Numbered from the stretch's first letter, positions 4,005 to 21,361 are shown. The stretch is 64,000 nucleotides of DNA from an uncultured Bacillota bacterium (GCA_963804645.1 CAWDRG010000017.1:32001-96000), one strand, 5' to 3'. Notes: a model not told the origin generated them from the sequence alone. Numbers and translations: made by a program.

Positions 4005-4099
4005 TCAGCCGTCTTCCAGATGCCCGCGATCGCGAATATTGGACACGTATGGTACTCTGGGGAACGGCCCCGGCGCATCCGGGGGAGATCGGTGAATCG

Positions 4100-4504: not shown

Positions 4505-4562
4505 CCGCCGCGACGCCCTCACCACGCGCGGGCGGCTCCGGGACCGTCGCCCCGCGTCCCGG

Positions 4563-5597
4563 TCACGCCTCCGCCCCCGATCCCACCAGCCGTCCCAGCA
4601 CTTCGTCGGCGAACACGCGCATCGGCGTCAGCGGTCCCGCGTCGTCCACGGGCCAAAGCCGGAGCGCGAAGTGGGACACGCCCGCCGCCGCGAGCGCGCG
4701 CAGTTTCGCGAGGCATTCGGGCGGCGTCCCCGCCACGGTGAACGTGTCGACCACCTCGTCGGGGATGAGTCCCAGCACGTCGTCCTGGAGCGTCCAGTGG
4801 TCGCCGTACCGGACCTTCGCCATCACCGCCTCGAGCGGTGCGGGCAGCGTGACGCCGAAGGTCGGGAGCACGTCGCGGCTCGAGAGCAGGATGCCGAACA
4901 CCACGAGACGCGCCCGCCGCCGGACGCGCCGCGCATCCGTCCCGATGACGGTGTGCGTCCACGCCGCCACCCGAAGGTCGTGGCGCGTCCGGCCAGACTT
5001 CCGGAGCCCCGCCTCCACCGGCACCATCGCCCGGCTCACGGCCGCGGGGCTGGCGAGCCCGCCGAGCATCACCCCATCCGCGACCTCGCCCGCGACCTCC
5101 AGGATCCGGGGGCCGCGGCCGGCAATGTAAATCGGCGGCACTGCCACCGGGCCAAAATCCATGCCGCCGTGAAAATGGACCGGCGCGTCCATCGCCACCT
5201 GCCCGCCGGCGAACAACGTGCGCAGCAGCTGCACGGTGGCGCGGATCGACGCGGCAGGCCGATGGACCACCGTGCCCATCGCGGCGAATCCGCTGATCCC
5301 CGCCCCGAGCCCCACGACGACCCGTCCATGCGAGGCCTCCTGCAGCGTGGCCAGACAGGTCGCGGTGATCGCGGGGTGCCGCACGAACGGGTCGGTGACG
5401 CAGGGCCCGAGCCGGACGGCCCGGGTGTGCCGCGCGACGGCGGTCAGCGTCACCATGACGTCGCGGAAGAACCGCTCGTCCGGCACCCAGATGTGGTCAA
5501 AGCCGCGCGCCTCCGCCTCCGCGGCGGCGTCGGCCAGCTCGCGCACCGGCAGCGCCGGCAGCAGCCCGACGCCGACGCTGATCGCGGGGCCGGTCAT
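4563..5597 (-). CDS. LLM-class (Mer-like) flavin/F420-dependent oxidoreductase
   Basis: GFDHIWVPDE, LGPCVTDPFVRHPA, GLGAG, IYIAGRGPRILEVAGEVADG. Confidence 0.9.
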   Translation of the reverse strand: MTGPAISVGVGLLPALPVRELADAAAEAEARGFDHIWVPDERFFRDVMVTLTAVARHTRAVRLGPCVTDPFVRHPAITATCLATLQEASHGRVVVGLGAGISGFAAMGTVVHRPAASIRATVQLLRTLFAGGQVAMDAPVHFHGGMDFGPVAVPPIYIAGRGPRILEVAGEVADGVMLGGLASPAAVSRAMVPVEAGLRKSGRTRHDLRVAAWTHTVIGTDARRVRRRARLVVFGILLSSRDVLPTFGVTLPAPLEAVMAKVRYGDHWTLQDDVLGLIPDEVVDTFTVAGTPPECLAKLRALAAAGVSHFALRLWPVDDAGPLTPMRVFADEVLGRLVGSGAEA

Positions 5598-6754
5598 CGG
5601 ACGAGAAGCTCCCGCGGCGCGTTCGAGAGGAAGTCGTAGCCCGTCTCGGTGACCACGACGTTATCCTCGATGCGAAACGCGCCGATGCTGAAGTCGTAAA
5701 TACCGGGCTCGATCGCCAGCACCATGCCCGGCTGGAGCGTGACCTTCACGCCGGGCCCGATCGATGGTTCTTCGTGGACTTCGGTCCCGAGGCTGTGCCC
5801 GGTCCGGTGCAGCATATGCTCGCGGTAGCCGCGGCGCACGATCGATGCCTCGACCTGCCGGTCCAGCTCCTCGCAGGTGATGCCCGGCCGGACAGCCCGC
5901 ACCGCATCCCAAAAGATCTCGGCGCTGGCCTCGTAGAAACGCCGCTGCCGATCGCTTGGCTCCCCGATGAAAAACCCTCGGGTGAGGTCGCCGTGATAGC
6001 CGTTGTACACCGCCCCGCAGTCGAACGTGACCATCTCGCCCCGCGACAACGTCCGCGTCGTCGCCGGGGCGTTCAACATCGCGTACCGCTGCGGGCCCGA
6101 GGCGATGCTCAGTGAGCGCACGGTGTCGGCGCCCTCGCGCATCATCGTGGTCCCCATCACGACCTGGAGCTCTCGCTCGGTCACCCCCTCCCGCATCACC
6201 TCGAGGGCCGCGACGATGCTGGCATCGGTGATGCGGCACGCCTCCCGCATGTAGGCGACCTCCTGCGGAGACTTGATCATGCGGAGATCCCACAGGATCG
6301 AGGCGCTGTCGACCCACGTTGCGGCCGGCAGCAGCCGCTGCAGCTGCCCGTACTGCTCGAGCGTCATGCCGAGCCGCTGCCCGCGGGTCTGCTCGATGCC
6401 GACGCGGCCGGCGGCCAGCCGCTTCTCGTCCATCACGATCTTGATCAGCTCGAGCGGGTCGCGGGCGACCGAGCCCATCCCGACGCCCCATCCCCGCACG
6501 TCGGCGATCCAGCCGGTCGCTTCGCCCTGCCACACTTCGAGGTTCGGCAGCAGCAGCACGGGGGCCGACGCCAGCGGGATCACCGCCGTGAACGGCCGGA
6601 ACGTGCTGGAAAACAGGTTCGTGCGGTAGCCCGTGAGGTACGTCAGGTTTCGATTCGCGGTGACGAGGAGCGCATCGATGCCCGCCTTCGACATCGCCGC
6701 GCGCGCGCGGGCCAGCCGCCCCTCGTATTCCGTCTTCGTGAACACGTCGTCCAT
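5594..6754 (-). CDS. M24 family Xaa-Pro peptidase/creatinase-like hydrolase
   Basis: N-terminal creatinase domain (NLTYLTGY), RMIKSPQE, metal ligands FDCG, GDLTR, GHSLG..HE, IEPG, RIED. Confidence 0.92.
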   Translation of the reverse strand: MDDVFTKTEYEGRLARARAAMSKAGIDALLVTANRNLTYLTGYRTNLFSSTFRPFTAVIPLASAPVLLLPNLEVWQGEATGWIADVRGWGVGMGSVARDPLELIKIVMDEKRLAAGRVGIEQTRGQRLGMTLEQYGQLQRLLPAATWVDSASILWDLRMIKSPQEVAYMREACRITDASIVAALEVMREGVTERELQVVMGTTMMREGADTVRSLSIASGPQRYAMLNAPATTRTLSRGEMVTFDCGAVYNGYHGDLTRGFFIGEPSDRQRRFYEASAEIFWDAVRAVRPGITCEELDRQVEASIVRRGYREHMLHRTGHSLGTEVHEEPSIGPGVKVTLQPGMVLAIEPGIYDFSIGAFRIEDNVVVTETGYDFLSNAPRELLVR

Positions 6755-6776
6755 CGTCCGGCCTCCCCGTAGTGCG

Positions 6777-8324
6777 CTACTTGGTCACCCAGGTCTGACT
6801 GAGATCGATCAGCTCGACCGGGGTCCCGTGGAACCCGTGGACGCGCTTGTTCACGCCGTAGATATTGTTCGTATAGTAGATTTCCTTGGCGACCGTGTCC
6901 CGCACCAGAAGGATCGATTCCATCTGGTCGTACATCTTCTGCCGCGCGATGGGGTTGTCCGAGGCCTCCGCGTCGGTGAGCATCTTGTCGAAGTCCGGGT
7001 TGTTGTAATCCCAGTAGTTGAACGCCGAGTGCGACTGGAAGTTCTGCGCCAGCGCCTGCGCCGGGTCGCCGGTGATCCAGCCCCAGCCGATCAGAAAGAT
7101 CGGACCTTGGTGCCGGGCGAGCGCGTCGAGGTACGCGCCCCACTCCATGACCTTCACATCGGCCTTCACGTTGATCTGCTGGAGCTGCTGCTGCACGGTC
7201 TCGGCGATCTGCCGGTCGCCGAGGTAGCGGCCCTCGGGCGTCCAGAACTCGGTGGTGAAGCCGTTCGGAAACCCGGCCTCCGCCAGCATCTGCTTCGCCT
7301 TCGCGGCGTCGAACGGGACGTCGGCGCACGGCGTCGTCGCCATGACCTCGGGCGGGATCATCCCGCACTTCGCCTCCCGGCCGAGCCCGTTCAGCACGTA
7401 CTTGATGATCGGGCCCCGGTCGATCGCCATCGCGAGCGCCTGCCGCACCTTGACGTTGTCGAACGGCGGCTTCGTCACGGTGAAGCCCACGCGGACGTCG
7501 CGGGTGGACGGACTGATATCCAGCGTCAGGTTGGGGGTGCTCCGGATCTGTGCGGCGAGGTTGGACGGCGGGTTCGAGATGACATCGACCTGCCCGCCCC
7601 GGAACGCCAGATACCGCGTGCTGTCATCGGAGATCGTCCGGAACACGACCTGATCCAGATACGGCTTGCGGCCCCAGTACGTGGGATTGCGCACCAGGCG
7701 CAGTTGCTGGTTCGGCGTCCAGTCCGCGAGCATGAACGGACCGGTGCCGACCGGATGCGTATTCGGATCGGGGGCGCCGGGGCGAAGCTCCGACGGGCTG
7801 AGCACCGCGGCCACGGGCGCCGCGAGGTTCTGAAGGAACGGCGCGAAGGGACGCTTCAGCCGGATGACCACGCGGTAGTCGTTCACCACGTCCACGCCGG
7901 CGATCACTCCGACGTACCCGGCGCTCCGCGGTGCGGCCGCGGCGCGCTCCATGCTCGTCTTCAGCGCCTGCGCGTTGAACGGGGTCCCGTCCGAGAATTT
8001 CACCCCCTGCCGGAGGTCAAACCGCCACGAGGTGGCCGACAGCTCCAGCCAGTCGAGTGCGAGCGCGGGGCGGATGTGGAGATTGAGGTCGAACTGCACC
8101 AGCGTGTCGAAGATCAGGTTGCTCACGACGATGTCCGTCGCCGCCTTGTAGTTGTGGGGGTCGAGCGTCAGCGCGTCCGTCCCGAACGCGATCGTGACGC
8201 TGCCGCCCGGCGCGGGGGTCTGCGCGAACGTGCCGGTGGTCGATAGGAACAGCGCCAGCACCACCACCGCCGCCGCAGCGATCCACCCCGATCGATGTAC
8301 CCCAAGCTGTTGCATCCCGAACAC
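6777..8324 (-). CDS. ABC transporter substrate-binding protein, family 5 (peptide/opine/nickel; GsiB/DppA-like)
   Basis: Signal peptide, LDP, LRQGVKFSDGTPFNA, GTGPF, PFDNVKVRQALAMAID; the start may be the ATG at 8315. Confidence 0.93.
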   Translation of the reverse strand: MFGMQQLGVHRSGWIAAAAVVVLALFLSTTGTFAQTPAPGGSVTIAFGTDALTLDPHNYKAATDIVVSNLIFDTLVQFDLNLHIRPALALDWLELSATSWRFDLRQGVKFSDGTPFNAQALKTSMERAAAAPRSAGYVGVIAGVDVVNDYRVVIRLKRPFAPFLQNLAAPVAAVLSPSELRPGAPDPNTHPVGTGPFMLADWTPNQQLRLVRNPTYWGRKPYLDQVVFRTISDDSTRYLAFRGGQVDVISNPPSNLAAQIRSTPNLTLDISPSTRDVRVGFTVTKPPFDNVKVRQALAMAIDRGPIIKYVLNGLGREAKCGMIPPEVMATTPCADVPFDAAKAKQMLAEAGFPNGFTTEFWTPEGRYLGDRQIAETVQQQLQQINVKADVKVMEWGAYLDALARHQGPIFLIGWGWITGDPAQALAQNFQSHSAFNYWDYNNPDFDKMLTDAEASDNPIARQKMYDQMESILLVRDTVAKEIYYTNNIYGVNKRVHGFHGTPVELIDLSQTWVTK

Positions 8325-8345
8325 CTCCCAGTCGTCTCGTGCCCG

Positions 8346-9377
8346 CTAGTGCTGCGTCCCTGGATGAGCGTGGTGGTACGGCCGGATGACCGCCTCGGCG
8401 AACTCTGTCATGAACTGTTCAAGCGTCTGCTCGGGAACGACCCACGGCAGCACGCCGATCTGCGTGACCCCTTGGCGCTCCAGCTCCGCGACCCGGCGGA
8501 GGCAGACGGCGGCATCCCCCGCCATCGTGAAATGCGCCAGCACGTCGTCGGGGACGTGCGAGGCCGCGCGCAGCATGCTTTCGGAGTGCATCCCATAGGT
8601 CACGGTCGCGAGCTCTTCGCGGAGCCCGGGCGGCAGCACGACCCCGAGATCATCGAGCACCGGCAGCGACGACACCAGCACCCCGACGACGATCGTGCGG
8701 ACGGCGTCCCGGGCGCGCGCGCCGTCCGACGCGAACGCGGTGTGCAGCCACAGCATGGTCTCGAACCCCTCCAGGCTGCGGCCGCTGCGGGCCGCCCCCG
8801 CGCGAATGTGGCGCGTCGCGTAGGCAAACGTCGACGGCGACGCCAGTGCGCCGATGATCACGCCATCGGCGATCTCGCCCGCCAGTTCCAGGATCCGCGG
8901 ACCGCGGCCGGCGATGTAGACCGGGATCGAGGCGCGCGCGGGGAAGTCCAGGCGTGCGCCGTGCGCACGCACGATCTGCCCCTCCTGCGTCACGCGCTCC
9001 CCGGCCAGCAGGCCGCGGATCAGCGCGATCGCCTCACGGATCGCCGTGGCCGGACGGTCGCGCTTCATGCCCATCGCGGCGAAACCGGCGGCGCCCGCGC
9101 CGATGCCGAGGATCGCCCGGCCGTCGGCCAATTCGTCCACGGAAGCCATCGCCGCGGCCGTCAGCGCCGGATGGCGCGAGTACGGATCCGTCACGCACGG
9201 CCCCAGCGCCACGCGCGTCGTGCGCTCCGCGACGTCCGCCAGCGTCACGTAGCAGTCGCGGTAGAAGCGCTCGTCCGGAATCCAGACGACGTCAAAGCCG
9301 AGCGTCTCGGCCAAGACGGACAGCCGCACGTTCTCGTCGTGCACCGCCACGGGCGTCAGCCCGATCCCAAACCGCAT
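8346..9377 (-). CDS. LLM-class (Mer-like) oxidoreductase, paralog of 4563..5597
   Basis: MRFGIG, GFDVVWIPDERFYRD, LGPCVTDPYSRHPA, IAGRGPRILELAGEIADG; ATG 9377 after GGGAGG. Confidence 0.9.
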   Translation of the reverse strand: MRFGIGLTPVAVHDENVRLSVLAETLGFDVVWIPDERFYRDCYVTLADVAERTTRVALGPCVTDPYSRHPALTAAAMASVDELADGRAILGIGAGAAGFAAMGMKRDRPATAIREAIALIRGLLAGERVTQEGQIVRAHGARLDFPARASIPVYIAGRGPRILELAGEIADGVIIGALASPSTFAYATRHIRAGAARSGRSLEGFETMLWLHTAFASDGARARDAVRTIVVGVLVSSLPVLDDLGVVLPPGLREELATVTYGMHSESMLRAASHVPDDVLAHFTMAGDAAVCLRRVAELERQGVTQIGVLPWVVPEQTLEQFMTEFAEAVIRPYHHAHPGTQH

Positions 9378-9459
9378 GACTACGGTACCTCCCTTCTCGT
9401 CGGACGCGGCCCCGACGCGCGTGGCCCGTGCGGGGGACGCGGCGCCGAGCCGTCGCGCC

Positions 9460-10330
9460 TCACCGAGACAACCGCGGATCGAGCGCGTCCCGCAGACCGT
9501 CACCGAGCAGATTCAGTGCTAGCACCAGCGTCATCAGGAACACCCCGGGAATCACCATAATGTGCGGCGCGTCGAACAGGTAGTTCCGCCCGTCGCTGAC
9601 CATGAGGCCCCACTCCGGCACCGGCGGCTGGGCGCCGAGCCCGAGGAAGCTCAGCCCCGCGATCGCGAGGACGTCCCCGCCCAGGCCGACCGTCGCCAGC
9701 ACGATGATCGGCGCCATCACGTTCGCGAGTACGTGCTGCCGCATCGCGCGCAGGTCGGACGCGCCGATCGCGTGCGCCGCCTCCACGTACTCCTGGCGGC
9801 GCACCTGCAGCACCGCCCCGCGCACCACGCGCACGTACTGCGGCATTTTCGTGATCCCGACCGCCGCCGCCGCCGTCCACAGCCCCGACCCGACGATCGC
9901 CACGATCAGAATCGCCAGCAGAAAATACGGGAAGGCGAGCAGGAGGTCGGTGAATCCGCATCATCCAGCCCGTCGGACCAGCCCCCGTAGTAGCCGGCCA
10001 GCATCCCAAACGGCGTGCCGATGCACAGGCCGATGGCCGTCGCCACCGCGGCGCCGCCGAGGGTGAACCGCGCGCCGTCGACGACGCGGGCGAGCATGTC
10101 CCGCCCGAGCGCGTCGCGCCCGAACCACCCCGCAGTCCCCGGCGGCGCGGCGCGCTGCGCCAAGATCTGCGCGCTGGGGTTCAGGCTCGACACGAACGGA
10201 CCGACCGCCGCCATCACGACCACCAGCCCCACGACCACCAGGCCCGCCGCAGCCGCGCGGTCCCGGCGCAGCCGCGGCCACATCTGCCGCACGAGGCCGC
10301 GGCCGGCCCGCTCCCCGCGAGCCCCGACAT
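9460..10330 (-). pseudogene. ABC transporter permease (DppC/OppC-like), frameshifted near 9955-9965
   Basis: N-half (FGRDALGRDMLAR, GMLAGYYGGW) and C-half (TDLLLAFPYF, EYVEAAHAIGAS, LSFLGLGAQPP.PEWG, GDGLRDALDP) lie in different frames. Start is either the ATG at 10330 coupled to the upstream permease (needs a further indel) or ATG 10283. Possibly a sequencing artefact. Confidence 0.82.
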
Positions 10331-11250
10331 TAGGCGTAGCGGATCCTCGGGTCGAGGTACGCATACGCCACATCGACCGCAAGGTTGATGACCGCGAACA
10401 CCCCGGCCACCAGCAGGATCGCGCCGCGGATGATCGCGTAGTCGCGGGCGAGCACGGCCGTGAGCAGCAGCGTCCCCAGCCCGGGCAGGGCGAACACCGA
10501 CTCGGTCAGCACCGCCCCGGCCAGCACCGCCCCGAACTGCAGGCCGATCACGGTCGTCACGGGCACCAGCGCGTTCCTCAGCACGTGGCGCGCGACGACC
10601 CGCGCGGTGCCCAGGCCTTTCGAATGGGCGGTCCGGACGTAATCGGAGGCGACCACCTCGAGCACGCTGCTCCGGGTCATCCGCGCGATCGCGGCCAGCG
10701 GAAACGCGGCGAGCGTGATGACCGGCAGGACGACCTGCTGGGGCGTGCCCCACCCGGAGACCGGAAAGATCGGGAATTTGATCGCGAACCACGAGATCAG
10801 CAATAGACCCAGCCAGAAGATCGGGATCGAGACCCCGCCGAGCACGATCCCGCGCGCGAGGTAGTCGATCCAACTGTACCGGCGGAGCGCGGAGAGGCAC
10901 CCGACCGACATGCCGATGATCGTCGCCACCGCGACGGACAGGGTCGCGAGGACGAACGTGACCTGGAACGTCCGTCCCAGTTCACCGGTCACCGGGCGCT
11001 TGGTCTCGAACGACCGACCCAGGTTGCCCTGCGCCGCCCCGCCGACGAACGCGACGTACTGCGCGAGCAGGGGCCGGTCCAGCCCGAGCTCGTGCCGGAC
11101 CTGCGCGATGCCGGCCGGCGTCGCGTCCTGTCCGAGCATCAACACGGCGGGGTCGCCGGGCGCGAACCGCAGCGCCACGAACACCAGCGCCGACACCGCC
11201 AGCAGGAGCGGGATCAACGCGAGAATCCGGCGCAGCACGTAGGCCGTCAC
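10330..11250 (-). CDS. ABC transporter permease (DppB/OppB-like)
   Basis: YVLRRIL, PGDPA, LGLDRPL..QY, DYVRTAHSKGL, ESVFALPGLG, AYLDPRIR. Confidence 0.95.
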   Translation of the reverse strand: MTAYVLRRILALIPLLLAVSALVFVALRFAPGDPAVLMLGQDATPAGIAQVRHELGLDRPLLAQYVAFVGGAAQGNLGRSFETKRPVTGELGRTFQVTFVLATLSVAVATIIGMSVGCLSALRRYSWIDYLARGIVLGGVSIPIFWLGLLLISWFAIKFPIFPVSGWGTPQQVVLPVITLAAFPLAAIARMTRSSVLEVVASDYVRTAHSKGLGTARVVARHVLRNALVPVTTVIGLQFGAVLAGAVLTESVFALPGLGTLLLTAVLARDYAIIRGAILLVAGVFAVINLAVDVAYAYLDPRIRYA

Positions 11251-12449: not shown

Positions 12450-12473
12450 GCGCCCGCGGCCGTCGGCGGTCAG

Positions 12474-14057: not shown

Positions 14058-14216
14058 CCTGCGCCACCCACCTTCAGCCCGCAACCGCGAGCCCGCCTCT
14101 CGAGTCTCGATCCTCGCCGCCAGGACATGGGTTCGGCACTCGTCCGGTGCCGCCCCGCCGCGGTCCCCGGGGATGCGCCGTCGCAGCGGACATCGGCCGG
14201 ATCGTCGAGCGCTCGC

Positions 14217-15095
14217 TTATTTCGAGCCCGCAAACGCTTGGTTGAACTCGTTCCACGGAATGCTCACGTCGAGCCACAGATTCAAACGCCCGACGTACAC
14301 GATCAGCGCATCGACCATTTCGCCCGCGTGCGGCGCGGGCAGCTCAGGGAGCGCGCCCGCCGCGAGTTCGAGCACCGCCGCCGCGCGGTCGAGCTGGTAC
14401 CATCCCCGCAGCCGCCCCGCCGCGTGGCGAAGCAGACGTGACGCGAAGGGCGGAACCGCGCCCGTCGCGCGCGCCTCCTGACGCAGAAGCCACAGCGCCT
14501 CCTGGAGGGTTCGGGTATCGCCCTCCGCGTACAGCAGCGGACCCGCGGGGCGCATGACGTCGCGCGCGCGGAGCAGCGCCGACACCTCCTCAGGCACGCA
14601 GTCGGCGATCCCGGCGTAGGCGGCGTCGATCTGTCGCGCGACCGCCGCGCCGCGCGCCGCAGGACCGCTCCGGCCAACGCCGCCGGCGCGATGTGCCGGC
14701 GTGAGGGCGCGCAGCCGCGCGATCGGGTGCCCATCCCCGTGCGGCCGCCGCAGCCGTTCGCCGGCCGCCGCCAGGGCGTCGAGGTTGTCGACGACCTGGC
14801 CCAACACGGTCACCGTGGCATCCTCTTCCTGGATGCGACCGTAGTAGACGCAAAAGAGCTGCCGATCCGGCCAGAACGCGACACAGCCGCGCGGGAGCAC
14901 CGCGACCGGCCGCGCGCGCTCGACCTCCAACACGACCGGAAGATGGAGCATGAATTCGTCGCCCGCGATCTTGGCGTAATGTGCGGTGGTCGAGAACGGC
15001 AGCAGTCTCTCAAGCGCCGCGCACGTGGCCGGAGCGGACTCGGGATCGAGCCGAGCGCGCGCCGCGGTTCCCTCGAGGTCGATCTCGATCTCCAC
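14217..15095 (-). CDS. DUF3830/cyclophilin-like N-domain plus helical C-domain; McbB/cucumopine-synthase-like protein (about 292 aa)
   Basis: APATCAALERLLP..HYAKIAGDE..VAFWP..CVYYGRIQEE..GQVVDNLDALAAAG and C-terminal YAEGDTRTL...DALIVYVGRLNLWLDVSIPW; GTG 15095 with GGAGG upstream. The 5' part of the track ORF is the antisense shadow of the regulator. Confidence 0.7.
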   Translation of the reverse strand: MEIEIDLEGTAARARLDPESAPATCAALERLLPFSTTAHYAKIAGDEFMLHLPVVLEVERARPVAVLPRGCVAFWPDRQLFCVYYGRIQEEDATVTVLGQVVDNLDALAAAGERLRRPHGDGHPIARLRALTPAHRAGGVGRSGPAARGAAVARQIDAAYAGIADCVPEEVSALLRARDVMRPAGPLLYAEGDTRTLQEALWLLRQEARATGAVPPFASRLLRHAAGRLRGWYQLDRAAAVLELAAGALPELPAPHAGEMVDALIVYVGRLNLWLDVSIPWNEFNQAFAGSK

Positions 15096-15154
15096 GACGG
15101 TACGGTGAACCTCCGGCAGTTGGCAGGCGTCGCGCCCATTTTGGGGACGAGTTC

Positions 15155-15190
15155 GCAGGGAAATTGCACCAGGGGTGGAATATTTCCTGC
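15155..15190. promoter_or_regulatory. Imperfect inverted repeat in the divergent promoter region; candidate operator for the XRE-cupin regulator
   Basis: GCAGGGAAATT...AATATTTCCTGC in an AT-richer spacer between divergent genes. Confidence 0.45.
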
Positions 15191-15227
15191 CACATTGTGT
15201 TCGTACTTCAACTCCAGGCGGCGCTTG

Positions 15228-15815
15228 GTGGGCAAGACACGCATCGACGACGGACTCCCCGTCGACCGTCCTTCCGCCGGCATCGGGGAAAAATTGGCGT
15301 CCCTGCGCAAGCAGCGGGGCCTGACCCTGGTCGAGCTGGCCGGCGCCGCCGGCACGAGCCCGAGCTTCCTCAGCCAGCTCGAGCGCGGCACCACCAACGC
15401 GTCGATCGATACGCTTCGCCGCATCGCCACCGCCCTCGGCGTGCCGATGTTTCACCTGTTCGTCGATGAGCCGAGCGCGCTCTGGGTCGTGCGCCGCAAC
15501 GGGAGGAAACGGCTGTCGTATCCGGATTCCGGCGCCACCTACGAACTGCTGGTGCCCGATCTCAACCGAGAAATGGAGCTGGTCCTGATCACGCTGGACG
15601 AGGGGCGCGCGACGTTCGACGCCCCGTTCAGCCATGCCGGGCACGAATGCGACGTGGTCCTTGAGGGCGAGGTACGGTTCGAGATCGGCAGTCGGCTCGA
15701 GGCGCTGGAGGCGGGCGACGCGATTTACTTCGACTGCACCATTCCGCACCGGTTCGTGAACGTCGGGCGCGGTGCGGCGCGGCTCCTGTCGGTCGTCTCA
15801 CCACCAACGTTCTAA
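15228..15815 (+). CDS. XRE-family HTH regulator with C-terminal cupin sensor domain
   Basis: IGEKLASLRKQRGLTLVELA..SPSFLSQLERG..SIDTLRRIATALGV; HAGHE..VLEG..LEAGDAIYFD...PHRF.N. Confidence 0.93.
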   Translation: MGKTRIDDGLPVDRPSAGIGEKLASLRKQRGLTLVELAGAAGTSPSFLSQLERGTTNASIDTLRRIATALGVPMFHLFVDEPSALWVVRRNGRKRLSYPDSGATYELLVPDLNREMELVLITLDEGRATFDAPFSHAGHECDVVLEGEVRFEIGSRLEALEAGDAIYFDCTIPHRFVNVGRGAARLLSVVSPPTF

Positions 15816-15828
15816 GGAGCGAGACCGC

Positions 15829-16836
15829 GTGAGCCTGCACAGCGGGACCCAAGTCGAGGCGGCGGCCGTCGAGCCGTCCCGCCAGCAGTTGGAGGAGATG
15901 TACCGCCGGATGTGCGCGGTGCGCGAGCTCGAGGAGGAGCTCGGGCGTCAGCACAAGCTCGGGACCACCCGCGGACCAATTCACCGCTGCGACGGGCAGG
16001 AGGCGGTCGGCGTCGCCGTGACCGCCGCGCTCGCGCCGACCGACATCGTCACGAGCACGCACCGGGGGCACGCCCACTACATCGGCAAGGGCGCCGATCT
16101 CCGCCGCCTCGCCGCGGAGATCTTCGGCCGGAAAACCGGATACTGTCTCGGCCGCGCCGGGCACATGCTTGTCGCCGACGCCTCGATCGGACTGCTGGGC
16201 GGGAACGGGATCGTGGGCGGCGCCATTCCGGTGGCGACGGGTCAGGCGTTTGCGTTCCAGGTGCAGCGCAGCGGCCGCGTCGTGGCGTGCTTCTTCGGCG
16301 AGGGCGCCGCGCAGATCGGTGCGTTTCACGAATGCCTCAACGTCGCCGGCCTGTGGCGGCTCCCGATCGTGTACGTCTGCGAGCACAATCACTACGGACT
16401 CACGGTCCATGTACGTCATCAGTCGAGCGTGGCGGACATTGCGCCGCGCGCGGCGGGCTACGGCATGCCGGGCGTGACGGTCGACGGGAACGACGCCGCG
16501 GCCCTGTATCGCGCGGCGCACGAGGCGGTCGCGCGCGCCCGCAGCGGCGGCGGGCCGACGCTGATTGAGGCCAAGACCTACCGGATGACCGGGTTCTCCA
16601 CGAGCGACCTCGGCGGCTATGAATTGCCGGACGAGCGCGCGGCGTGGGCACCGAAGGACCCGATCCAGCGGCTCCACCGTGCGCTCGCGGCCGCGGGCTC
16701 CGCCCCCGAGCGGCTCGACACACTGGCCCGGACCGCGCGCGAGCAGGTCCAGGACGCCATCGCCTTCGCGCTCGCGAGCCCGTTGCCGACCGCCGAGGAC
16801 CTGTGGGGCGACGTGTACGCGACGGAGGCGCCCTGA
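15829..16836 (+). CDS. ThDP-dependent 2-oxoacid/acetoin dehydrogenase E1 alpha-like subunit
   Basis: GQEAVGV, STHRGHAH, NGIVGG, FFGEGA, VCEHNHYG, DGND, GPTLIEAKTYR. Confidence 0.92.
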   Translation: MSLHSGTQVEAAAVEPSRQQLEEMYRRMCAVRELEEELGRQHKLGTTRGPIHRCDGQEAVGVAVTAALAPTDIVTSTHRGHAHYIGKGADLRRLAAEIFGRKTGYCLGRAGHMLVADASIGLLGGNGIVGGAIPVATGQAFAFQVQRSGRVVACFFGEGAAQIGAFHECLNVAGLWRLPIVYVCEHNHYGLTVHVRHQSSVADIAPRAAGYGMPGVTVDGNDAAALYRAAHEAVARARSGGGPTLIEAKTYRMTGFSTSDLGGYELPDERAAWAPKDPIQRLHRALAAAGSAPERLDTLARTAREQVQDAIAFALASPLPTAEDLWGDVYATEAP

Positions 16837-16837
16837 G

Positions 16838-17827: not shown

Positions 17828-17837
17828 GCGGCGTCCG

Positions 17838-19007
17838 ATGCCGGTAGAGGTGCGGCTCACCGCCGTGGCGGGCGAGTACATGGCCACCGCCGTGGTGCAG
17901 GAGTGGCTCGTCCAGGAAGGCCAGCCGGTCGCCGAGGGCGCGCCGCTGGTGGTCGTCGAGACGGCGAAGGCGAACGTCGAGATCCCGGCCCCGGCGACCG
18001 GCGTGCTGCAGCAGATCGTCGTGGCGCGGGGGGATGAGGCGCCGGTCGGCGCCCTGCTGGCCGTGATCGCGTCTGCGGGTGAACGGGCAGCGCCTCCCGC
18101 GACGGTGACGGCCCGCGAGGCCACGCGGACCGAGCCGAGCCCGAAGACCGACACGACGCCGGCGCCCGAGCCGCAGGCCCCCGGCGGCTTCGTGCGCGCC
18201 ACGCCCCGGGCGCGGGCGCTGGCCCGGGAACTCGGGGTGCCGCTCGCGCGGGTGACGGCCGCAGGGGGCGGCGTCGTCTCCGAGGAGGACGTGCGCCGCG
18301 CGGCTTCCGCCGCGCGGCCCGCACCCCGCGTCGAGCAGCTCGAGGGGTACCGCCGCGCGGCCGCGGAGCACATGGCGCGCGCGCTCGAGGTCCCGCAGTT
18401 CTCGGTGTCGATGACCTTCGACGCGACACGGCTCGACGAGACGCGCGCGGCGCTCAAACGGGCGGACCCCGAGGACGGCGCGGTCATCCCGAGCGTGACC
18501 GAGTTCGTCGTGAAAGCGGCGGCCCTGGCACTCAGGCGGCATCCCCGCGTCAACGCCCGGTGGGAAGATGGACGCGTCCGCGCCCTGGACGACGTCAACG
18601 TGGGTGTCGCGGTGGCGACGGACCGGGGACTCGTCGTCCCGGTGCTCCGGGCCGCGGACACCCGCGCGCTGTCGGACCTCGCGGCGGGCCTGGCCGGGCT
18701 GCGCACGCGCGCGGAGGCGTTTCGCCTCGCCCCGGAGGACGTTCAGGGGGGCACCTTCACCGTGTCGAACCTCGGCATGTTCGGGGTCGAGCACTTCACC
18801 GCGCTCGTCAATCCGCCGCAGGCCGCGATCCTGGCCGTCTCCGCGGTCACCGCGCGGGTGGTGTGGGTGAGCGGAGAGGCCCGTCCCCAGCGGCGGGGCG
18901 ATCTGACCCTCACGGCGGACCACCGTGTGATCGACGGCATGGACGCGGCGCGCTTCCTTGGCGACATCAAGGCGCTGCTGGAGCAACCCGACGGCCTCCT
19001 GGCGTGA
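17838..19007 (+). CDS. Dihydrolipoamide acyltransferase (E2) with one lipoyl domain
   Basis: VETAKANVEI lipoyl Lys, ATPRARALARELGV E3-binding domain, GGTFTVSNLGMFG, DHRVIDG. Confidence 0.93.
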   Translation: MPVEVRLTAVAGEYMATAVVQEWLVQEGQPVAEGAPLVVVETAKANVEIPAPATGVLQQIVVARGDEAPVGALLAVIASAGERAAPPATVTAREATRTEPSPKTDTTPAPEPQAPGGFVRATPRARALARELGVPLARVTAAGGGVVSEEDVRRAASAARPAPRVEQLEGYRRAAAEHMARALEVPQFSVSMTFDATRLDETRAALKRADPEDGAVIPSVTEFVVKAAALALRRHPRVNARWEDGRVRALDDVNVGVAVATDRGLVVPVLRAADTRALSDLAAGLAGLRTRAEAFRLAPEDVQGGTFTVSNLGMFGVEHFTALVNPPQAAILAVSAVTARVVWVSGEARPQRRGDLTLTADHRVIDGMDAARFLGDIKALLEQPDGLLA

Positions 19008-19073
19008 CGCGGGACGCGCCGGGCGGAGCACGGAGACAGACCGCGGAGGCGGACGATCGATGGGGGTGGGACG

Positions 19074-20237
19074 ATGAAGTTCTTGGAGTTCTCGGTCGAA
19101 GAATATCAGGCGCGGTACGCCGCGGTGCAGCGGTTGATGCGGGAAGCCGACGTGACGGCGCTCGTGCTGAGCGACGCCTCAAACCTCATCTACCTGACCG
19201 GCTACCGGACGATCCTGTTCGCGAGTAAGTTCCGGCCGTTCTACGCGGTCATTCCGGCCCAAGGCGATCCGGTGCTGGTCCTGCCAAACCTGGAGGTCGG
19301 CGATGGGCGGAAGACGTCCTGGATCCAGGATATCCGAGGCTGGGGCAAGGGGCTGTACGCCGACCGTCCGGACGTGTTCACGATCGTCCGCGAGGTCGCG
19401 GACGAGAAGCACCTCCGCACGGGCCGCATCGGGCTGGAGCTCGGGATCGGCCAGCGGCTGGCGATGACGTTCGATCAGTACGAGCAGCTGCGCGAGATCT
19501 TCTCCGGCGCGACGTTCGTCAACGCCGCCGAGATCATGTGGAAGGTCCGCGTCAAGAAGTCGCCGCAGGAGATCGCGTACCTCCGGACCGCGTGCAAGGC
19601 GACCGACGCCGCGTTCGACGCCGCCGTCGCGGCGGCGCGCGAAGGGGTCAGCGAGACCACCCTGCAGCGGGTCCTCGGCGTCACGATGATGGAGCACGGG
19701 GCGGACGCGCCGGGATTCCTGGTCGTCGCGTCGGGGCCCGACCGGTACGACATGCTGAACCCCTACGCATCCTCGCGCACGCTGCAGCGCGGCGACATGC
19801 TGAACTTCGACATCGGGGCGGTCTACAAGAGCTACTGGGCCGATCTCACCCGCGGCATCTTCATCGGCGAGGTGTCGAAGCGGCAGCGGGAATTCTACGA
19901 GGCCGAGGCGGAGATCTTCCGCCGCACGCTGCACGCGGTCAAGCCGGGCATCGCCATTCAGGACGTGGACAAGGTCGCCGAGGCGACGACCCGCGAACTC
20001 GGCTACGAGAAGTACATGCTGCACCGGACCGGGCACGCCCTCGGCCTCGACGTACACGAGATTCCGTCGGTGGCGGTCGGCGACACGACGGTGATGGAAC
20101 CCGGCATGGTGTTTACGATCGAACCCGGGATCTACGACTTCGCGATCGGGGCGTTCCGGATCGAGGACACCGTGCTCGTCACCGACACCGGCTTCGAAAC
20201 GCTCACCAACTGTACGCGTGACCTGATCGTCCGGTGA
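19074..20237 (+). CDS. M24 family Xaa-Pro peptidase-like hydrolase, paralog of 5594..6754
   Basis: NLIYLTGYRT, KKSPQE, FDIG, ADLTRG, GHALG..HE, IEPG, RIED. Confidence 0.92.
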   Translation: MKFLEFSVEEYQARYAAVQRLMREADVTALVLSDASNLIYLTGYRTILFASKFRPFYAVIPAQGDPVLVLPNLEVGDGRKTSWIQDIRGWGKGLYADRPDVFTIVREVADEKHLRTGRIGLELGIGQRLAMTFDQYEQLREIFSGATFVNAAEIMWKVRVKKSPQEIAYLRTACKATDAAFDAAVAAAREGVSETTLQRVLGVTMMEHGADAPGFLVVASGPDRYDMLNPYASSRTLQRGDMLNFDIGAVYKSYWADLTRGIFIGEVSKRQREFYEAEAEIFRRTLHAVKPGIAIQDVDKVAEATTRELGYEKYMLHRTGHALGLDVHEIPSVAVGDTTVMEPGMVFTIEPGIYDFAIGAFRIEDTVLVTDTGFETLTNCTRDLIVR

Positions 20238-20359
20238 CGCGGCCGCGCCCGGCGGAGGCCGCGGGGACGCCGGCCTGAGGCCGACTCGCGGCGGCGCCGG
20301 CGCGGTGCACGGGTCCGTGAGGCCGGCCGGACACGATGCCAGCACGTGAGGAGGACACG

Positions 20360-21361
20360 ATGCCAGCATTCGCCTACTTCTGCGGCACCGAGCAGTTCCA
20401 GCCCGAGGTCCTGCTCGAGCACGCGGTGCGCGCCGAGGACGTCGGGTTTGACGCCCTCACGGTCTCCGACCATTTCCACCCGTGGGTCGATGACGCGTCC
20501 GCGGCGGGCGCCGCGTGGACCTGGCTCGGCGCGGCGGCCGTCCGCACCCGGCGCGTGCGCCTCGCCACCGCCGTGACCTGCCCCCTCTTCCGCTACCATC
20601 CGGGATTGGTCGCCCAGGCGGCGGCCACGGTCGACCGGCTGTCCGGCGGCCGGTTCGCGCTCGGCATCGGGAGCGGCGAGGGCATCAACGAACGCCCCCT
20701 CGGCTGGGACTTCCCAGGGTACAAGGAACGGTCCGCCCGCATGGCGGAAGCGATCGCGATCATGCGCGGCCTCCTCGACGGGAAGAAGCTCGATTTCACC
20801 GGGGAGCACTATCGGACGCGCGCCGCCAAGCTCTACAGCCCTCCGCGCGGCTACGTCCCGATCTGGATGTCGGCCGGCGGCAAGCAGTCCGCCGCGATGG
20901 CCGGCCGGCTCGCGGACGGGCTCATCGTCAGCGTCAAGGACCCGGTCGACGCGCACCAGCAGGTCATCGATCCCTTCCGGCAGGCCGCGCGCGAGGCGGG
21001 CCGGCCGACGCCGACGGTCGTCGCCCAGCGGTGGTCGATCCTCGCCCGCACCGAGGAGGAAGCCTGGCAGGCGCTCGCCGCGTGGCGGGGCCTCCGCGTC
21101 GAGGGCCGGCTCGACGAGGTGGACCCGGCCGTCCTCCGGCAGCGGGCCGACTCGATGGACCGCCGCGAGATCATCGCCAAGTACGCGTGGGCCCGCACGC
21201 CCGCGGAACTGGTGGAGGTGTACCGACCGTTGGTCGAGGTCGGGGCGGACATCGTCACGGTCCAGGTCACGTCGGTCGACCAGGAGGCCACCCTCGACAT
21301 CCTCGGGACGGACGTGCTCCCCGCGCTGCGCCAGATCGTGCCTCCGGCCCCGCGCGCTTAG
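20360..21361 (+). CDS. F420-dependent LLM oxidoreductase, G6PDH/FGD-like family
   Basis: EQFQP, SDHFHPW, TAVTCPLFRYHP, GIGSGEGINE; ATG 20360 after GAGGAGG. Confidence 0.88.
   Translation: MPAFAYFCGTEQFQPEVLLEHAVRAEDVGFDALTVSDHFHPWVDDASAAGAAWTWLGAAAVRTRRVRLATAVTCPLFRYHPGLVAQAAATVDRLSGGRFALGIGSGEGINERPLGWDFPGYKERSARMAEAIAIMRGLLDGKKLDFTGEHYRTRAAKLYSPPRGYVPIWMSAGGKQSAAMAGRLADGLIVSVKDPVDAHQQVIDPFRQAAREAGRPTPTVVAQRWSILARTEEEAWQALAAWRGLRVEGRLDEVDPAVLRQRADSMDRREIIAKYAWARTPAELVEVYRPLVEVGADIVTVQVTSVDQEATLDILGTDVLPALRQIVPPAPRA

What the first reader, a model, noticed from the sequence alone, without database searches (positions are those of the whole stretch)
4563..21361. Divergent XRE-cupin locus: candidate undescribed pathway for an amino acid-carbonyl conjugate
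Seen: two tightly packed arms around one regulator. The left arm has the McbB-like protein, a ThDP enzyme, an M20 hydrolase, two permeases, an LLM, a family-5 SBP, an M24 and a second LLM. The right arm has E1a, E1b, E2, an M24 and an F420-type LLM. Each arm carries a paralogous M24 (shared YLTGYRT.LF.S.FRPF and IEPGIYDF.IGAFRIED), which ties the arms together. No ABC ATPase and no E3 are present. Inference: import of an opine-like or cyclic imino-acid compound, LLM redox at C-N bonds, hydrolysis, and disposal of the 2-oxoacid or aldehyde by the ThDP enzymes. I do not recognise this combination as a described pathway.
Basis: partly seen in the sequence, partly recalled or inferred. Interest (0 to 1): 0.75.

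Follow-up and report, generated by a model that had tools for sequence, protein, structure and literature searches.

The report
Uptake-and-breakdown locus with Pictet-Spenglerase-like enzyme
Two back-to-back operons in an uncultured high-GC bacterium combine a rare relative of alkaloid- and opine-forming Pictet-Spengler enzymes with importer parts, hydrolases, deazaflavin-type oxidoreductases and thiamine enzymes, which looks like an undescribed route for using an amino acid-carbonyl adduct.

Summary
The two M24 genes are 54% identical paralogs. No ABC ATPase or E3 motif occurs anywhere in the 64 kb.

The "McbB-like" call is correct but remote. A profile of the protein hits McbB (PDB 3x27) at E 3e-5. 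The AF2 model matches McbB over its full length, TM 0.76.

- One related MAG contig has the same two-arm layout.
- M24 and Mer-like LLM hits share 21 contig lengths, against a null mean of 0.9.
- The 7 plasmid E1-alpha genes closest to the window's, of 301 records, are exactly the 7 Rhizobiaceae plasmids that carry a homolog of the McbB-like gene.

I found no described pathway that matches. The best reading is a regulated catabolic locus for a peptide-like or cyclic imino-acid adduct. Substrate and chemistry are inferred, not shown. Interest is moderate to high.

The parts
14217..15095 (-). McbB/cucumopine-synthase-type protein ('geneX', 292 aa): N-terminal cyclophilin-like beta-barrel plus C-terminal helical bundle
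   Evidence: Pfam DUF3830/Cyclophil_like on residues 1-110. Profile A1 hits PDB 3x27 (McbB) at E 3e-5 over profile positions 11-283. AF2 pLDDT is 86.7. The best Foldseek hit is 3x27, TMq 0.76 / TMt 0.71, E 8.5e-13. E91 is conserved, next to the position aligned with the McbB loop Glu.
12474..14084 (-). ThDP enzyme of the catabolic acetolactate-synthase type (536 aa; the start may be the ATG near 14057)
   Evidence: Pfam TPP_enzyme_N/M/C. NCBIfam PRK08322 scores 353 bits, below its cut-off of 509. The best PDB matches are catabolic ALS (226 bits) and carboxyethylarginine synthase (186 bits).
11247..12449 (-). M20 deacylase-type metallohydrolase (ArgE/DapE/YgeY-like)
   Evidence: Pfam Peptidase_M20 + M20_dimer. 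All NCBIfam hits are below their cut-offs.
10330..11250 (-). OppB/NikB/GsiC-type ABC permease
   Evidence: Pfam BPD_transp_1 + BPD_transp_1_N. NCBIfam Opp2B scores 314 bits, cut-off 350.
9460..10382 (-). OppC-type ABC permease, broken by a frameshift near 9954-9964 in the window
   Evidence: The OppC_N and BPD_transp_1 halves lie in different frames. In L001 both halves are in one frame. The window has two 1-nt insertions relative to L001.
8346..9377 (-). Mer-like luciferase-like oxidoreductase (LLM2, about 343 aa)
   Evidence: Pfam Bac_luciferase. The best NCBIfam and PDB matches are F420-dependent methylene-H4MPT reductases, all below cut-off. The start was refined from homolog lengths.
6777..8324 (-). 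Family-5 solute-binding protein (Opp/Dpp/Nik/GsiB type)
   Evidence: Pfam SBP_bac_5, E 3e-93. NCBIfam GsiB 230, NikA 200 and DppA 186 bits, all below cut-off.
5594..6754 (-). M24B pita-bread hydrolase with Creatinase_N domain (M24a)
   Evidence: Pfam. The best PDB matches are prolidases. It is 54% identical to M24b, and the Asp/Asp/His/Glu/Glu ligand motifs are visible.
4563..5597 (-). Mer-like luciferase-like oxidoreductase (LLM1). Its start overlaps the M24a stop by 4 bp.
15096..15227 (.). Divergent control region between the two arms, with an exact inverted repeat TGGCAGG/CCTGCCA and a quasi-palindrome GGAAAT...ATTTCC
   Evidence: The region is 93% identical to L001, too close for footprinting.
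15228..15815 (+). XRE-HTH plus cupin regulator (195 aa), first gene of the right arm
   Evidence: Pfam HTH_3 + Cupin_2. NCBIfam PuuR scores 65.8 bits, cut-off 211. Start choice.
15829..16836 (+). E1 alpha of a PDH/acetoin-type ThDP dehydrogenase
   Evidence: Pfam E1_dh. TIGR03182 scores 309.6 bits, cut-off 393.85. It is 54.5-60.9% identical to the E1 alpha of the 7 plasmids that carry geneX homologs, and at most 47.5% identical to all other listed plasmid hits.
16838..17827 (+). E1 beta
   Evidence: Pfam Transket_pyr + Transketolase_C. NF006667 scores 385 bits, cut-off 321. It is 61% identical to the Neorhizobium plasmid E1 beta.
17838..19007 (+). E2 with lipoyl, E3-binding and acyltransferase catalytic domains
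   Evidence: Pfam Biotin_lipoyl, E3_binding and 2-oxoacid_dh.
19074..20237 (+). M24B hydrolase, paralog of M24a (M24b)
20336..21361 (+). F420-type LLM (TIGR03557 family)
   Evidence: NCBIfam TIGR03557 scores 232.6 bits, above its cut-off of 210.4.
4049..4504 (+). Neighbour of uncertain membership: PPOX-class, F420-type small oxidoreductase, convergent with the left arm
   Evidence: Pfam PNPOx_N, E 3.7e-17. TIGR03618 scores 73.5 bits, cut-off 79.05. The stretch is conserved at the end of L001. The minus-strand ORF 4001-4525 is a wrong frame.
21358..22365 (-). Neighbour of uncertain membership: acetamidase/formamidase-family amidase, convergent, overlapping the LLM3 stop by 4 bp
   Evidence: Pfam FmdA_AmdA, E 8e-50. 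It lies beyond the end of L001, so its conservation is unchecked.

Best explanation
This is a single regulated uptake-and-breakdown locus for a peptide-like adduct between an amino acid and a carbonyl compound. The adduct probably contains a cyclic imino-acid ring of the kind Pictet-Spengler chemistry makes.

Shown:
- The gene families and their two-arm layout around one XRE-cupin regulator.
- Recurrence of that layout in a related MAG.
- A widespread M24 + Mer-like LLM core.
- A cross-phylum link between the McbB-like protein and one E1 alpha/beta subtype.

Inferred steps:
1. The family-5 binding protein and two permeases import the compound, using ATPases encoded elsewhere.
2. The prolidase-like M24 pair and the M20 enzyme cut amide bonds, including bonds to a secondary (ring) nitrogen.
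3. The F420-type LLMs carry out redox steps on the ring or on C-N bonds.
4. The McbB-like protein works on the amino acid-carbonyl junction, most simply in reverse. It would open the ring to release an amino acid and a 2-oxo acid or keto-aldehyde.
5. The E1/E2 system and the ALS-type ThDP enzyme capture the carbonyl piece as acyl-CoA or a condensation product, which pulls the reaction forward.
6. The cupin domain of the regulator senses the substrate or an intermediate.
For: Gene families.

The McbB-type assignment of geneX rests on:
- a profile hit to PDB 3x27 at E 3e-5;
- a full-length fold match, TM 0.76;
- Atlas neighbours carrying PF18631/DUF3830;
- PF18631 in 7 of 39 scanned relatives;
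- a conserved Glu (E91) at the catalytic loop, also kept in the two Rhizobiaceae homologs (Neorhizobium, Shinella) aligned.

Characterised members of this family condense Trp or His with alpha-ketoglutarate, oxaloacetaldehyde or methylglyoxal (passages of PMC12012969 and PMC12536604).

Features of a catabolic kind:
- importer parts inside the operon;
- three hydrolases;
- a PuuR-like XRE-cupin regulator heading one arm;
- an E1/E2 system that yields acyl-CoA;
- no NRPS, PKS, ligase or exporter among the 15 genes.

Conservation:
- L001 has both arms at about 81-97% amino-acid identity.
- geneX, M24 and LLM hits share 4 contig lengths. M24 and LLM hits share 21, against a shifted-length null with mean 0.9 and maximum 4.
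- Among 301 plasmid records with an E1 alpha hit, the 7 most similar (54.5-60.9%) are exactly the 7 that carry a geneX homolog. E1 alpha lies 2.9 kb away in one and about 14.5 kb away in six; the next best hit is 47.5%.
- In Neorhizobium the homolog sits directly after E1a-E1b-E2-like-NIPSNAP, in an island with a GntR regulator, a Liv-type importer, a DAO-type oxidase and a ProC-like reductase. The Shinella island, which also carries a Rid-family gene, is similar.
Against: - No substrate is identified, and nothing shows the direction of the pathway.
- Every characterised member of the McbB/KslB/cucumopine-synthase family is biosynthetic. A reverse Pictet-Spengler enzyme has not been described. 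My searches found none, but coverage is limited.
- geneX itself gets no PF18631 hit at E <= 0.1. It is only about 21-22% identical to McbB.
- Most contigs with the M24 + LLM core show no geneX hit, so the core does not need it.
- The Rhizobiaceae loci share only geneX and E1/E2 with the window. They have no LLM, M24, M20 or ALS-type gene.
- The 7 plasmids represent only about 2-3 independent lineages.
- The co-location on metagenome contigs is inferred from equal contig lengths. Gene order there was not seen.
- The OppC-like permease is frameshifted in the window.
- No ATPase or E3 is nearby.
- F420 use by LLM1 and LLM2 is below every curated cut-off.
Confidence: 0.4

Rival explanations
1. It is a biosynthetic cluster. 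The ALS-type ThDP enzyme or the E1 supplies a carbonyl partner. The McbB-like enzyme condenses it with Trp, His or another amino acid in the forward Pictet-Spengler direction. The LLMs tailor the ring by reduction or aromatisation. The importer re-captures the product, as happens with opine-type metallophores.
For: - All characterised family members are synthases (passages of PMC12012969 and PMC12536604).
- geneX is the first gene of its operon, directly upstream of a ThDP enzyme whose PDB relatives include carboxyethylarginine synthase, a biosynthetic enzyme.
- The binding protein and the frameshifted OppC-like permease (its 9906-10382 half) give weak NikA/CntA/CntC-type matches.
Against: - Among the 15 genes there is no exporter, ligase, methyltransferase, NRPS or PKS.
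- Three hydrolases and an acyl-CoA-forming E1/E2 fit breakdown better.
- The regulator is of a type best matched by PuuR, a catabolic repressor.
- The Rhizobiaceae homologs sit in islands with importers, GntR regulators, DAO-type oxidases and, in Shinella, a Rid-family gene.
- The matches to metallophore models are far below their cut-offs (106 against 800 bits).
Confidence: 0.2
2. The locus handles peptide or gamma-glutamyl/glutathione-type compounds. The M24 + LLM + importer core does the work. The McbB-like protein has a role unrelated to Pictet-Spengler chemistry, for example binding or trapping a reactive imine or aldehyde intermediate that the E1 then processes.
For: - The M24 + LLM core is widespread without geneX.
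- The best NCBIfam match of the binding protein is GsiB, and the permeases match GsiC/GsiD.
- The window holds three gamma-glutamyltranspeptidases, glyoxalase-fold proteins and many amidohydrolases and peptidases.
- Stand-alone beta-barrel and helical-bundle forms of the family exist, which suggests functional plasticity.
Against: - The catalytic-loop Glu and a set of other residues are invariant from the window protein to the Rhizobiaceae homologs. That argues for catalysis, not mere binding.
- All GsiB/C/D matches are far below their cut-offs.
- The gamma-glutamyltranspeptidase genes are outside the two arms.
Confidence: 0.2
3. There is no single pathway. A peptide-uptake and hydrolase operon and an acetoin/pyruvate-dehydrogenase-type operon simply lie back to back.
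For: - Each family is common on its own.
- The arms share no gene with the Rhizobiaceae loci other than geneX and E1/E2.
- E3 and the ATPases are missing, so both systems depend on genes elsewhere.
Against: - One 132-bp divergent region and one regulator serve both arms.
- Each arm carries an M24-LLM pair, with the M24s 54% identical.
- geneX is in the left arm and its conserved partner E1 is in the right arm.
- The whole layout is kept in L001.
Confidence: 0.12

Closest known systems
McbB (Marinactinospora thermotolerans, PDB 3x27), KslB/AsKslB, and cucumopine/mikimopine synthases (PF18631 family of bacterial Pictet-Spenglerases)
   Same: - Two-domain build, beta-barrel plus helical bundle, in the McbB order.
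- Full-length fold match, TM 0.76.
- Profile hit at E 3e-5.
- An acidic residue at the catalytic loop.
   Different: - Only about 21-22% identity to McbB.
- No direct PF18631 hit.
- The subfamily is rare: 10 proteins at E <= 0.001 in the word-indexed search of 5.8 billion, and 45 cluster representatives at E <= 1e-30.
- It sits with importer parts, hydrolases and E1/E2, not with the amide synthetase and decarboxylase partners that I recall for the mcb and ksl clusters.
- Its activity is unknown.
Acetoin dehydrogenase / PDH-type E1 alpha-beta plus E2 systems
   Same: E1 alpha, E1 beta and a lipoyl-bearing E2 in a row. The Rhizobiaceae counterparts have the AcoC-like E2 with an alpha/beta-hydrolase domain.
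   Different: - E1 alpha is below the PDH equivalog cut-off (309.6 against 393.85 bits).
- No E3 is present.
- This E1 subtype tracks the McbB-like gene across phyla, which points to a special substrate.
Opp/Dpp/Nik/Gsi-type ABC importers
   Same: A family-5 binding protein and two permeases of the OppB/OppC type.
   Different: - There are no ATPase genes in the 64 kb.
- The transporter genes are interleaved with enzymes.
- The OppC-like gene is frameshifted in the window.
- All equivalog cut-offs are missed.
F420-dependent methylene-tetrahydromethanopterin reductase (Mer) and other F420-type LLMs
   Same: LLM1 and LLM2 match Mer best, by NCBIfam and PDB. LLM3 passes the TIGR03557 cut-off.
   Different: - LLM1 and LLM2 are below the Mer cut-offs (199 and 235 bits against 276).
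- The context is not one-carbon metabolism.
- They pair with M24 hydrolases on at least 21 contig lengths. I found no description of that pairing; the one search aimed at it returned 0 papers.
Opine catabolic regions of Agrobacterium/Rhizobium plasmids (for example cucumopine or mikimopine catabolism)
   Same: The logic is the same: an importer, a regulator and enzymes that split an amino acid-keto acid adduct. The only cultured carriers of geneX homologs that I found are Rhizobiaceae megaplasmids.
   Different: - I could not see the gene content of the described cucumopine catabolic region. The Hooykaas 2022 Plasmid paper appears only as a reference in 10.1101/2023.06.20.545721 and is not in the library.
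- None of the 7 records with a geneX homolog is named as an Agrobacterium or R. rhizogenes plasmid; I did not check whether the collection holds Ri/Ti records.

Membership tests
McbB / cucumopine-synthase-type Pictet-Spenglerases (PF18631 plus cyclophilin-like barrel) | Two-domain fold: cyclophilin-like beta-barrel plus helical bundle | tested here: met
   AF2 model with pLDDT 86.7. The top Foldseek hit is 3x27 (McbB), TMq 0.76 / TMt 0.71 over 316 columns. KslB matches the barrel only.
McbB / cucumopine-synthase-type Pictet-Spenglerases (PF18631 plus cyclophilin-like barrel) | Sequence-profile membership (Pfam PF18631 Cucumopine_C) | tested here: inconclusive
   geneX itself has no PF18631 hit at E <= 0.1. 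Profile A1 hits 3x27 at E 3e-5. Of 39 scanned relatives, 7 hit PF18631 at E <= 0.001 and 3 of them are above the gathering score. Atlas neighbour clusters carry PF18631 in 30-94% of members.
McbB / cucumopine-synthase-type Pictet-Spenglerases (PF18631 plus cyclophilin-like barrel) | Catalytic glutamate on the barrel loop (Glu97 of McbB, Glu274 of KslB; passages of PMC12012969) | tested here: met
   In the HMM alignment, geneX E90 pairs with the only Glu of the McbB PLTEYL loop, SEQRES position 118. Equating that with Glu97 assumes a 21-residue tag, which is my inference. The adjacent E91 is invariant in A1 and kept in the Rhizobiaceae homologs.
McbB / cucumopine-synthase-type Pictet-Spenglerases (PF18631 plus cyclophilin-like barrel) | Catalysis of a Pictet-Spengler condensation | not testable with these tools
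   This needs an enzyme assay.
2-oxoacid / acetoin dehydrogenase complex | E1 alpha, E1 beta, and E2 with lipoyl, E3-binding and catalytic domains | tested here: met
   Pfam. E1 beta is above the NF006667 cut-off. E1 alpha and E2 are below the equivalog cut-offs.
2-oxoacid / acetoin dehydrogenase complex | Dedicated E3 (dihydrolipoamide dehydrogenase) in the operon | tested here: not met
   No E3 redox-disulfide motif occurs in any frame of the window, and there is no Pyr_redox hit among the scanned ORFs. E3 is often shared, so this does not exclude function.
Opp/Dpp-type ABC importer | Family-5 binding protein plus two permeases | tested here: met
   One permease is frameshifted in the window and intact in L001.
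Opp/Dpp-type ABC importer | Two ATPase subunits | tested here: not met
   No LSGGQ-type signature occurs anywhere in the 64 kb, in six frames.
F420-dependent LLM oxidoreductases | Score above a curated F420-LLM model cut-off | tested here: inconclusive
   LLM3 is met: TIGR03557, 232.6 against 210.4 bits. LLM1 and LLM2 match Mer models best but fall below cut-off, at 199 and 235 against 276 bits. Whether the organism makes F420 is unchecked.
M24B prolidase / aminopeptidase P | Pita-bread domain with five metal ligands, plus Creatinase_N domain | tested here: met
   Pfam. The ligand-bearing motifs (FD, D-TR, TGH, IEPG, RIED) are visible in both paralogs; the ligand pattern itself is recalled, not taken from a call. 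The PepQ equivalog cut-off is missed (194-199 against 630 bits), so substrate specificity is open.
PuuR-type XRE-cupin regulators | N-terminal XRE HTH plus C-terminal cupin sensor | tested here: met
   HTH_3 and Cupin_2. The PuuR equivalog cut-off is missed (65.8 against 211 bits), so it is like PuuR in build, not an ortholog.
Described cucumopine/mikimopine catabolic regions | Gene content of the mapped catabolic region on Ri or pAt plasmids | not tested
   The describing paper was not available. None of the 7 plasmid records matched by geneX or its Neorhizobium homolog is an Agrobacterium or R. rhizogenes plasmid.

The most novel reading that the evidence does not exclude
The McbB-like protein is a catabolic, reverse-acting Pictet-Spenglerase, or a ring-opening lyase on the same scaffold. 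It splits a cyclised amino acid-keto acid adduct, such as a tetrahydro-beta-carboline-1-carboxylate or a spinacine/cucumopine-type compound. It works with a dedicated E1/E2 that removes the released 2-oxo acid. F420-type LLM and prolidase-like M24 pairs prepare the ring. This would be the first breakdown route for Pictet-Spengler-type natural products and opines, found from soil MAGs to Rhizobiaceae.
Probability: 0.2. Interest if true: 0.8.

Novelty: new variant of a known kind. Interest (0 to 1): 0.6.

Why it matters
Pictet-Spengler adducts are widespread. They include beta-carbolines, spinacine-type compounds and the opines cucumopine and mikimopine. I found no enzyme-level account of how bacteria break them down (limited coverage).

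This locus offers a concrete and testable set of candidates:
- a rare McbB-type protein tied across phyla to one E1 subtype;
- a prolidase-like M24 plus Mer-like LLM pair that recurs on at least 21 metagenome contig lengths and has no assigned function.

Some carriers are culturable (Shinella, Neorhizobium, Sinorhizobium), so genetics is possible. If the enzyme runs in reverse, it would add a new reaction type to a family so far known only from biosynthesis. It would also be of interest for biocatalysis.

Tried and rejected
- **Single-sequence PDB search with geneX.** It found only cyclophilin-like barrels, not McbB. A profile and a fold search were needed.
- **Literature.**
  - 'DUF3830' gave 0 papers.
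  - 'F420-dependent + luciferase-like + Xaa-Pro + gene cluster' gave 0 papers.
  - The search for catabolic or retro Pictet-Spenglerases gave 26 papers, 15 listed. None was relevant by title or abstract start, apart from a copper amine oxidase acting on harmaline.
  - 'pAtAg67' gave only a citing preprint.
- **Genome scan with profile A1.** It gave a single locus, L001, about 90% identical. That is too close for deep conservation or for footprinting of the control region.
- **Minus-strand ORF 4001-4525 as an extension of the left arm.** Rejected. The codon-position GC signal and a PNPOx_N hit show that the real gene is 4049-4504 on the plus strand.
- **Rfam.** No hits in the window.
- **Promoter and terminator scan.** No excess over shuffles.
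- **Metallophore reading.** The CntA/CntC-type matches are far below cut-off.
- **Not run.** I did not run complex prediction, the second structure prediction, or the second Atlas search.

Full report
**1. What is there**

The window is about 70% G+C. Codon-position GC analysis together with Pfam and NCBIfam scans give the following map.

The left arm is on the minus strand and is transcribed leftward from 15095:
- a 292-aa protein, here called geneX, 14217-15095
- an acetolactate-synthase-type ThDP enzyme, 12474-14084
- an M20 deacylase-type hydrolase, 11247-12449
- an OppB-like permease, 10330-11250
- an OppC-like permease, 9460-10382
- a Mer-like luciferase-like oxidoreductase, LLM2, 8346-9377
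- a family-5 binding protein, 6777-8324
- an M24B hydrolase with a Creatinase_N domain, M24a, 5594-6754
- a second Mer-like LLM, LLM1, 4563-5597

A 132-bp gap separates geneX from an XRE-HTH plus cupin regulator on the plus strand (15228-15815). The right arm follows the regulator:
- E1 alpha, 15829-16836
- E1 beta, 16838-17827
- a complete E2, 17838-19007
- M24b, 19074-20237
- LLM3, 20336-21361, the only LLM that passes a curated F420 cut-off (TIGR03557, 232.6 against 210.4 bits)

Gaps in the left arm run from -53 to 132 bp. The start sites of E1 alpha, E1 beta and LLM2 were refined from ribosome-binding sites and homolog lengths.

- The two M24 proteins are 54% identical over 382 residues.
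- Both M24 proteins carry the quoted motifs and the ligand-bearing motifs of metal-dependent pita-bread enzymes. The ligand pattern is recalled, not taken from a call.
- A six-frame motif scan finds no ABC-ATPase signature and no E3 redox-disulfide motif anywhere in the 64 kb.

**2. Corrections to the map**

- The OppC-like permease lies in two frames. Compared with the related contig L001, the window has two single-base insertions near 9954-9964. This is either an assembly error or a pseudogene.
- The minus-strand ORF 4001-4525, which I first took for a tenth left-arm gene, is a wrong frame. The real gene is 4049-4504 on the plus strand. It is a PPOX-class protein just under the cut-off of an F420-dependent subfamily, at 73.5 against 79.05 bits.

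**3. The McbB-like protein**

- A single-sequence search of the PDB found only small cyclophilin-like barrels.
- Pfam gives DUF3830/Cyclophil_like on residues 1-110 only.
- A profile of geneX and eight homologs (alignment A1) hits PDB 3x27, which is McbB deposited as 'cucumopine synthase'. The hit has E 3e-5 and runs over nearly the full length.
- An AlphaFold2 model (pLDDT 86.7) has McbB as its best PDB match over 316 columns, with TM 0.76/0.71 and E 8.5e-13. KslB matches the barrel only.
- This fits the KslB paper, which reports that KslB has the two domains in swapped order and that Glu97 of McbB and Glu274 of KslB are catalytic (passages of PMC12012969).
- In the HMM alignment the single Glu of the McbB PLTEYL loop pairs with geneX E90. 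Equating that Glu with Glu97 assumes a 21-residue tag, which is my inference.
- The neighbouring E91 is invariant in A1 and is kept in the Rhizobiaceae homologs.
- Atlas neighbours carry PF18631, DUF3830 and Cyclophil_like2.
- Of 39 scanned relatives, 7 hit PF18631 at E <= 0.001, and 3 of them are above the gathering score.

geneX is thus a divergent member of the McbB/cucumopine-synthase superfamily. Characterised members of that superfamily condense Trp or His with alpha-ketoglutarate, oxaloacetaldehyde or methylglyoxal (passages of PMC12012969 and PMC12536604).

The subfamily is rare:
- The word-indexed search of 5.8 billion proteins found 10 proteins at E <= 0.001.
- Among 1.84 billion cluster representatives, 398 score E <= 0.001 and 45 score E <= 1e-30. 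These include stand-alone barrel and stand-alone helical forms.

**4. Conservation**

They do.

(a) The one genome-collection hit, L001, is a MAG contig. It has both arms in the same order at about 81-97% amino-acid identity. It is too close to say more.

(b) Metagenome contigs could not be fetched. The hit tables do print the length of the longest contig for each protein cluster, so I matched lengths.
- The geneX, M24a and LLM2 tables share four lengths: 69109, 20238, 17804 and 50070. The last of these belongs to a geneX homolog of only 49% identity.
- The M24 and LLM tables share 21 of 111 and 114 distinct lengths. A shifted-length null gives a mean of 0.9 and a maximum of 4.
- Seven contig lengths other than the window's own carry two M24 hits, and six carry two LLM hits.
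- Most of these lengths have no geneX hit.
- The M24 plus Mer-like LLM pair is therefore a widespread core, and geneX is a rarer addition.
- Gene order on those contigs was not seen.

(c) In the plasmid collection, geneX has full-length homologs of 29-31% identity on exactly 7 records: Shinella (5), Neorhizobium sp. NCHU2750 and Sinorhizobium sp. RAC02.
- In Neorhizobium the homolog follows E1a, E1b, an AcoC-like E2 and a NIPSNAP protein. It is followed by a 3-hydroxyacyl-CoA-dehydrogenase-like gene, an SDR, a ProC-like reductase, a GntR regulator, a Liv-type importer and a DAO-type oxidase.
- In Shinella sp. H4-D48 an E1a-E1b-AcoC-like-ProC-SDR-Rid block lies 14.5 kb from the homolog, in the same island.
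- The window's E1 alpha finds 301 plasmid records at E <= 1e-40. The 7 most similar (54.5-60.9%) are exactly those 7 plasmids, and the next best is 47.5%.
- E1 beta is 60-61% identical to the two plasmid E1 beta genes compared.
- The 7 plasmids represent perhaps two or three independent lineages.
- Even so, this links geneX in the left arm to the E1 in the right arm, and it does so across phyla.

**5. Mechanism**

The following are shown: families, layout, conservation, and the geneX-E1 link. Everything else is inferred.

The locus has the look of catabolism:
- importer parts sit inside the operon;
- there are three hydrolases;
- an XRE-cupin regulator, best matched by PuuR, heads one arm;
- the E1/E2 system makes acyl-CoA;
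- there is no exporter, ligase, NRPS or PKS;
- the surrounding window is rich in peptidases, amidohydrolases and gamma-glutamyltranspeptidases;
- the Rhizobiaceae islands are of the same kind.

Prolidase-like M24 enzymes cut amide bonds to a ring nitrogen, and the best PDB matches of M24a are prolidases. The best matches of LLM1 and LLM2 are enzymes that reduce a carbon bridged between nitrogens. The ALS-type enzyme and the E1 both handle 2-oxo acids or small keto compounds.

The simplest scheme that uses all the parts is:
1. import of a peptide-like adduct;
2. hydrolysis by M24 and M20;
3. F420-type redox on the ring;
4. ring opening, or the reverse condensation, by geneX, giving an amino acid and a carbonyl compound;
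5. capture of the carbonyl piece by the E1/E2 system and the ALS-type enzyme.

I give this reading 0.4.

The rivals are:
- a biosynthetic cluster with re-uptake of the product (0.2);
- a peptide or glutathione-type salvage locus in which geneX has a different role (0.2);
- two unrelated operons lying back to back (0.12).

**6. Known or new**

I found no described pathway with this combination.
- 'DUF3830' gave 0 papers.
- An F420/LLM/Xaa-Pro/gene-cluster query gave 0 papers.
- A query for catabolic or retro Pictet-Spenglerases gave nothing relevant among the 15 papers listed of 26.
- Papers on cucumopine and mikimopine plasmids, read as passages only, do not give enzyme-level catabolism (PMC8087989 and 10.1101/2023.06.20.545721).
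- The one paper that maps a cucumopine catabolic region (Hooykaas et al. 2022, Plasmid) is not in the library. I saw it only as a reference, so that comparison stays open.
- Supplements were not consulted.

**7. What stayed unchecked**

- Gene order on the metagenome contigs.
- Whether the source organism makes F420.
- Where the ATPases and E3 are encoded.
- Whether the frameshifts are real.
- Whether the convergent amidase (21358-22365) and the PPOX-class gene (4049-4504) belong to the system.

**8. Verdict**

- Novelty: a new combination of known families, with a Pictet-Spenglerase-type protein in an apparently catabolic setting.
- Interest: 0.6.

Noticed in passing
window 9954-9964 (within 9460-10382, minus strand): The OppC-like permease is split into two frames by two single-base insertions relative to L001, where the gene is intact.
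   Followed up: yes
window 3412-4004 (minus strand): A MaoC/hotdog hydratase gene appears in two overlapping frames. ORFs 3621-4004 and 3412-3981 match consecutive parts of the same Pfam profile. This suggests another frameshift or assembly error.
   Followed up: partly
L001 11945-13500: In the related MAG contig the family-5 binding protein aligns in three pieces in different frames. That assembly carries indels too, which favours sequencing error over real pseudogenes.
   Followed up: no
window 4049-4504 (plus strand): A PPOX-class small oxidoreductase lies just under the cut-off of an F420-dependent subfamily. It is convergent with the left arm and conserved at the end of L001. With the three LLMs it makes four deazaflavin-type candidates within 17 kb.
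   Followed up: partly
window 681-2615 (+), 42361-44181 (-), 52718-54370 (-): Three gamma-glutamyltranspeptidase paralogs lie in one 64-kb window. With them are glyoxalase-fold proteins, two metallo-beta-lactamase-fold proteins, an M81/MlrC-type peptidase, an M42 peptidase and several amidohydrolases. The region is unusually rich in amide-bond hydrolases.
   Followed up: no
window 38570-42199 (minus strand): One stop-free frame of 1209 codons carries a family-5 binding-protein domain followed by an amidohydrolase domain. It may be a fusion, or two genes joined by my stop-to-stop reading.
   Followed up: no
window 55437-57992 (plus strand); G+C dips at 54001-56000 and 58001-60000: An 851-aa protein has polyglycine-hydrolase-type BTRD1 repeats and a serine beta-lactamase-fold domain. 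It sits in a stretch of lower G+C (0.60-0.61, against about 0.70 elsewhere).
   Followed up: no
proteins P0273-P0399: The geneX family includes many stand-alone barrel proteins (about 130 aa) and stand-alone helical-bundle proteins (about 150 aa) beside the fused form. This fits the domain-order swap reported between McbB and KslB.
   Followed up: no
L002 8732-10471; L003 13154-14893: In the Rhizobiaceae islands a 579-aa protein with a C-terminal B12-binding domain lies next to or near the geneX homolog, with a KstD-like flavoprotein beside it. The window has no counterpart.
   Followed up: no
window 23695-24570 and 22378-23667 (minus strand): A class A beta-lactamase-family gene and a potassium-channel gene with a TrkA-N domain lie just beyond the right arm.
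   Followed up: no
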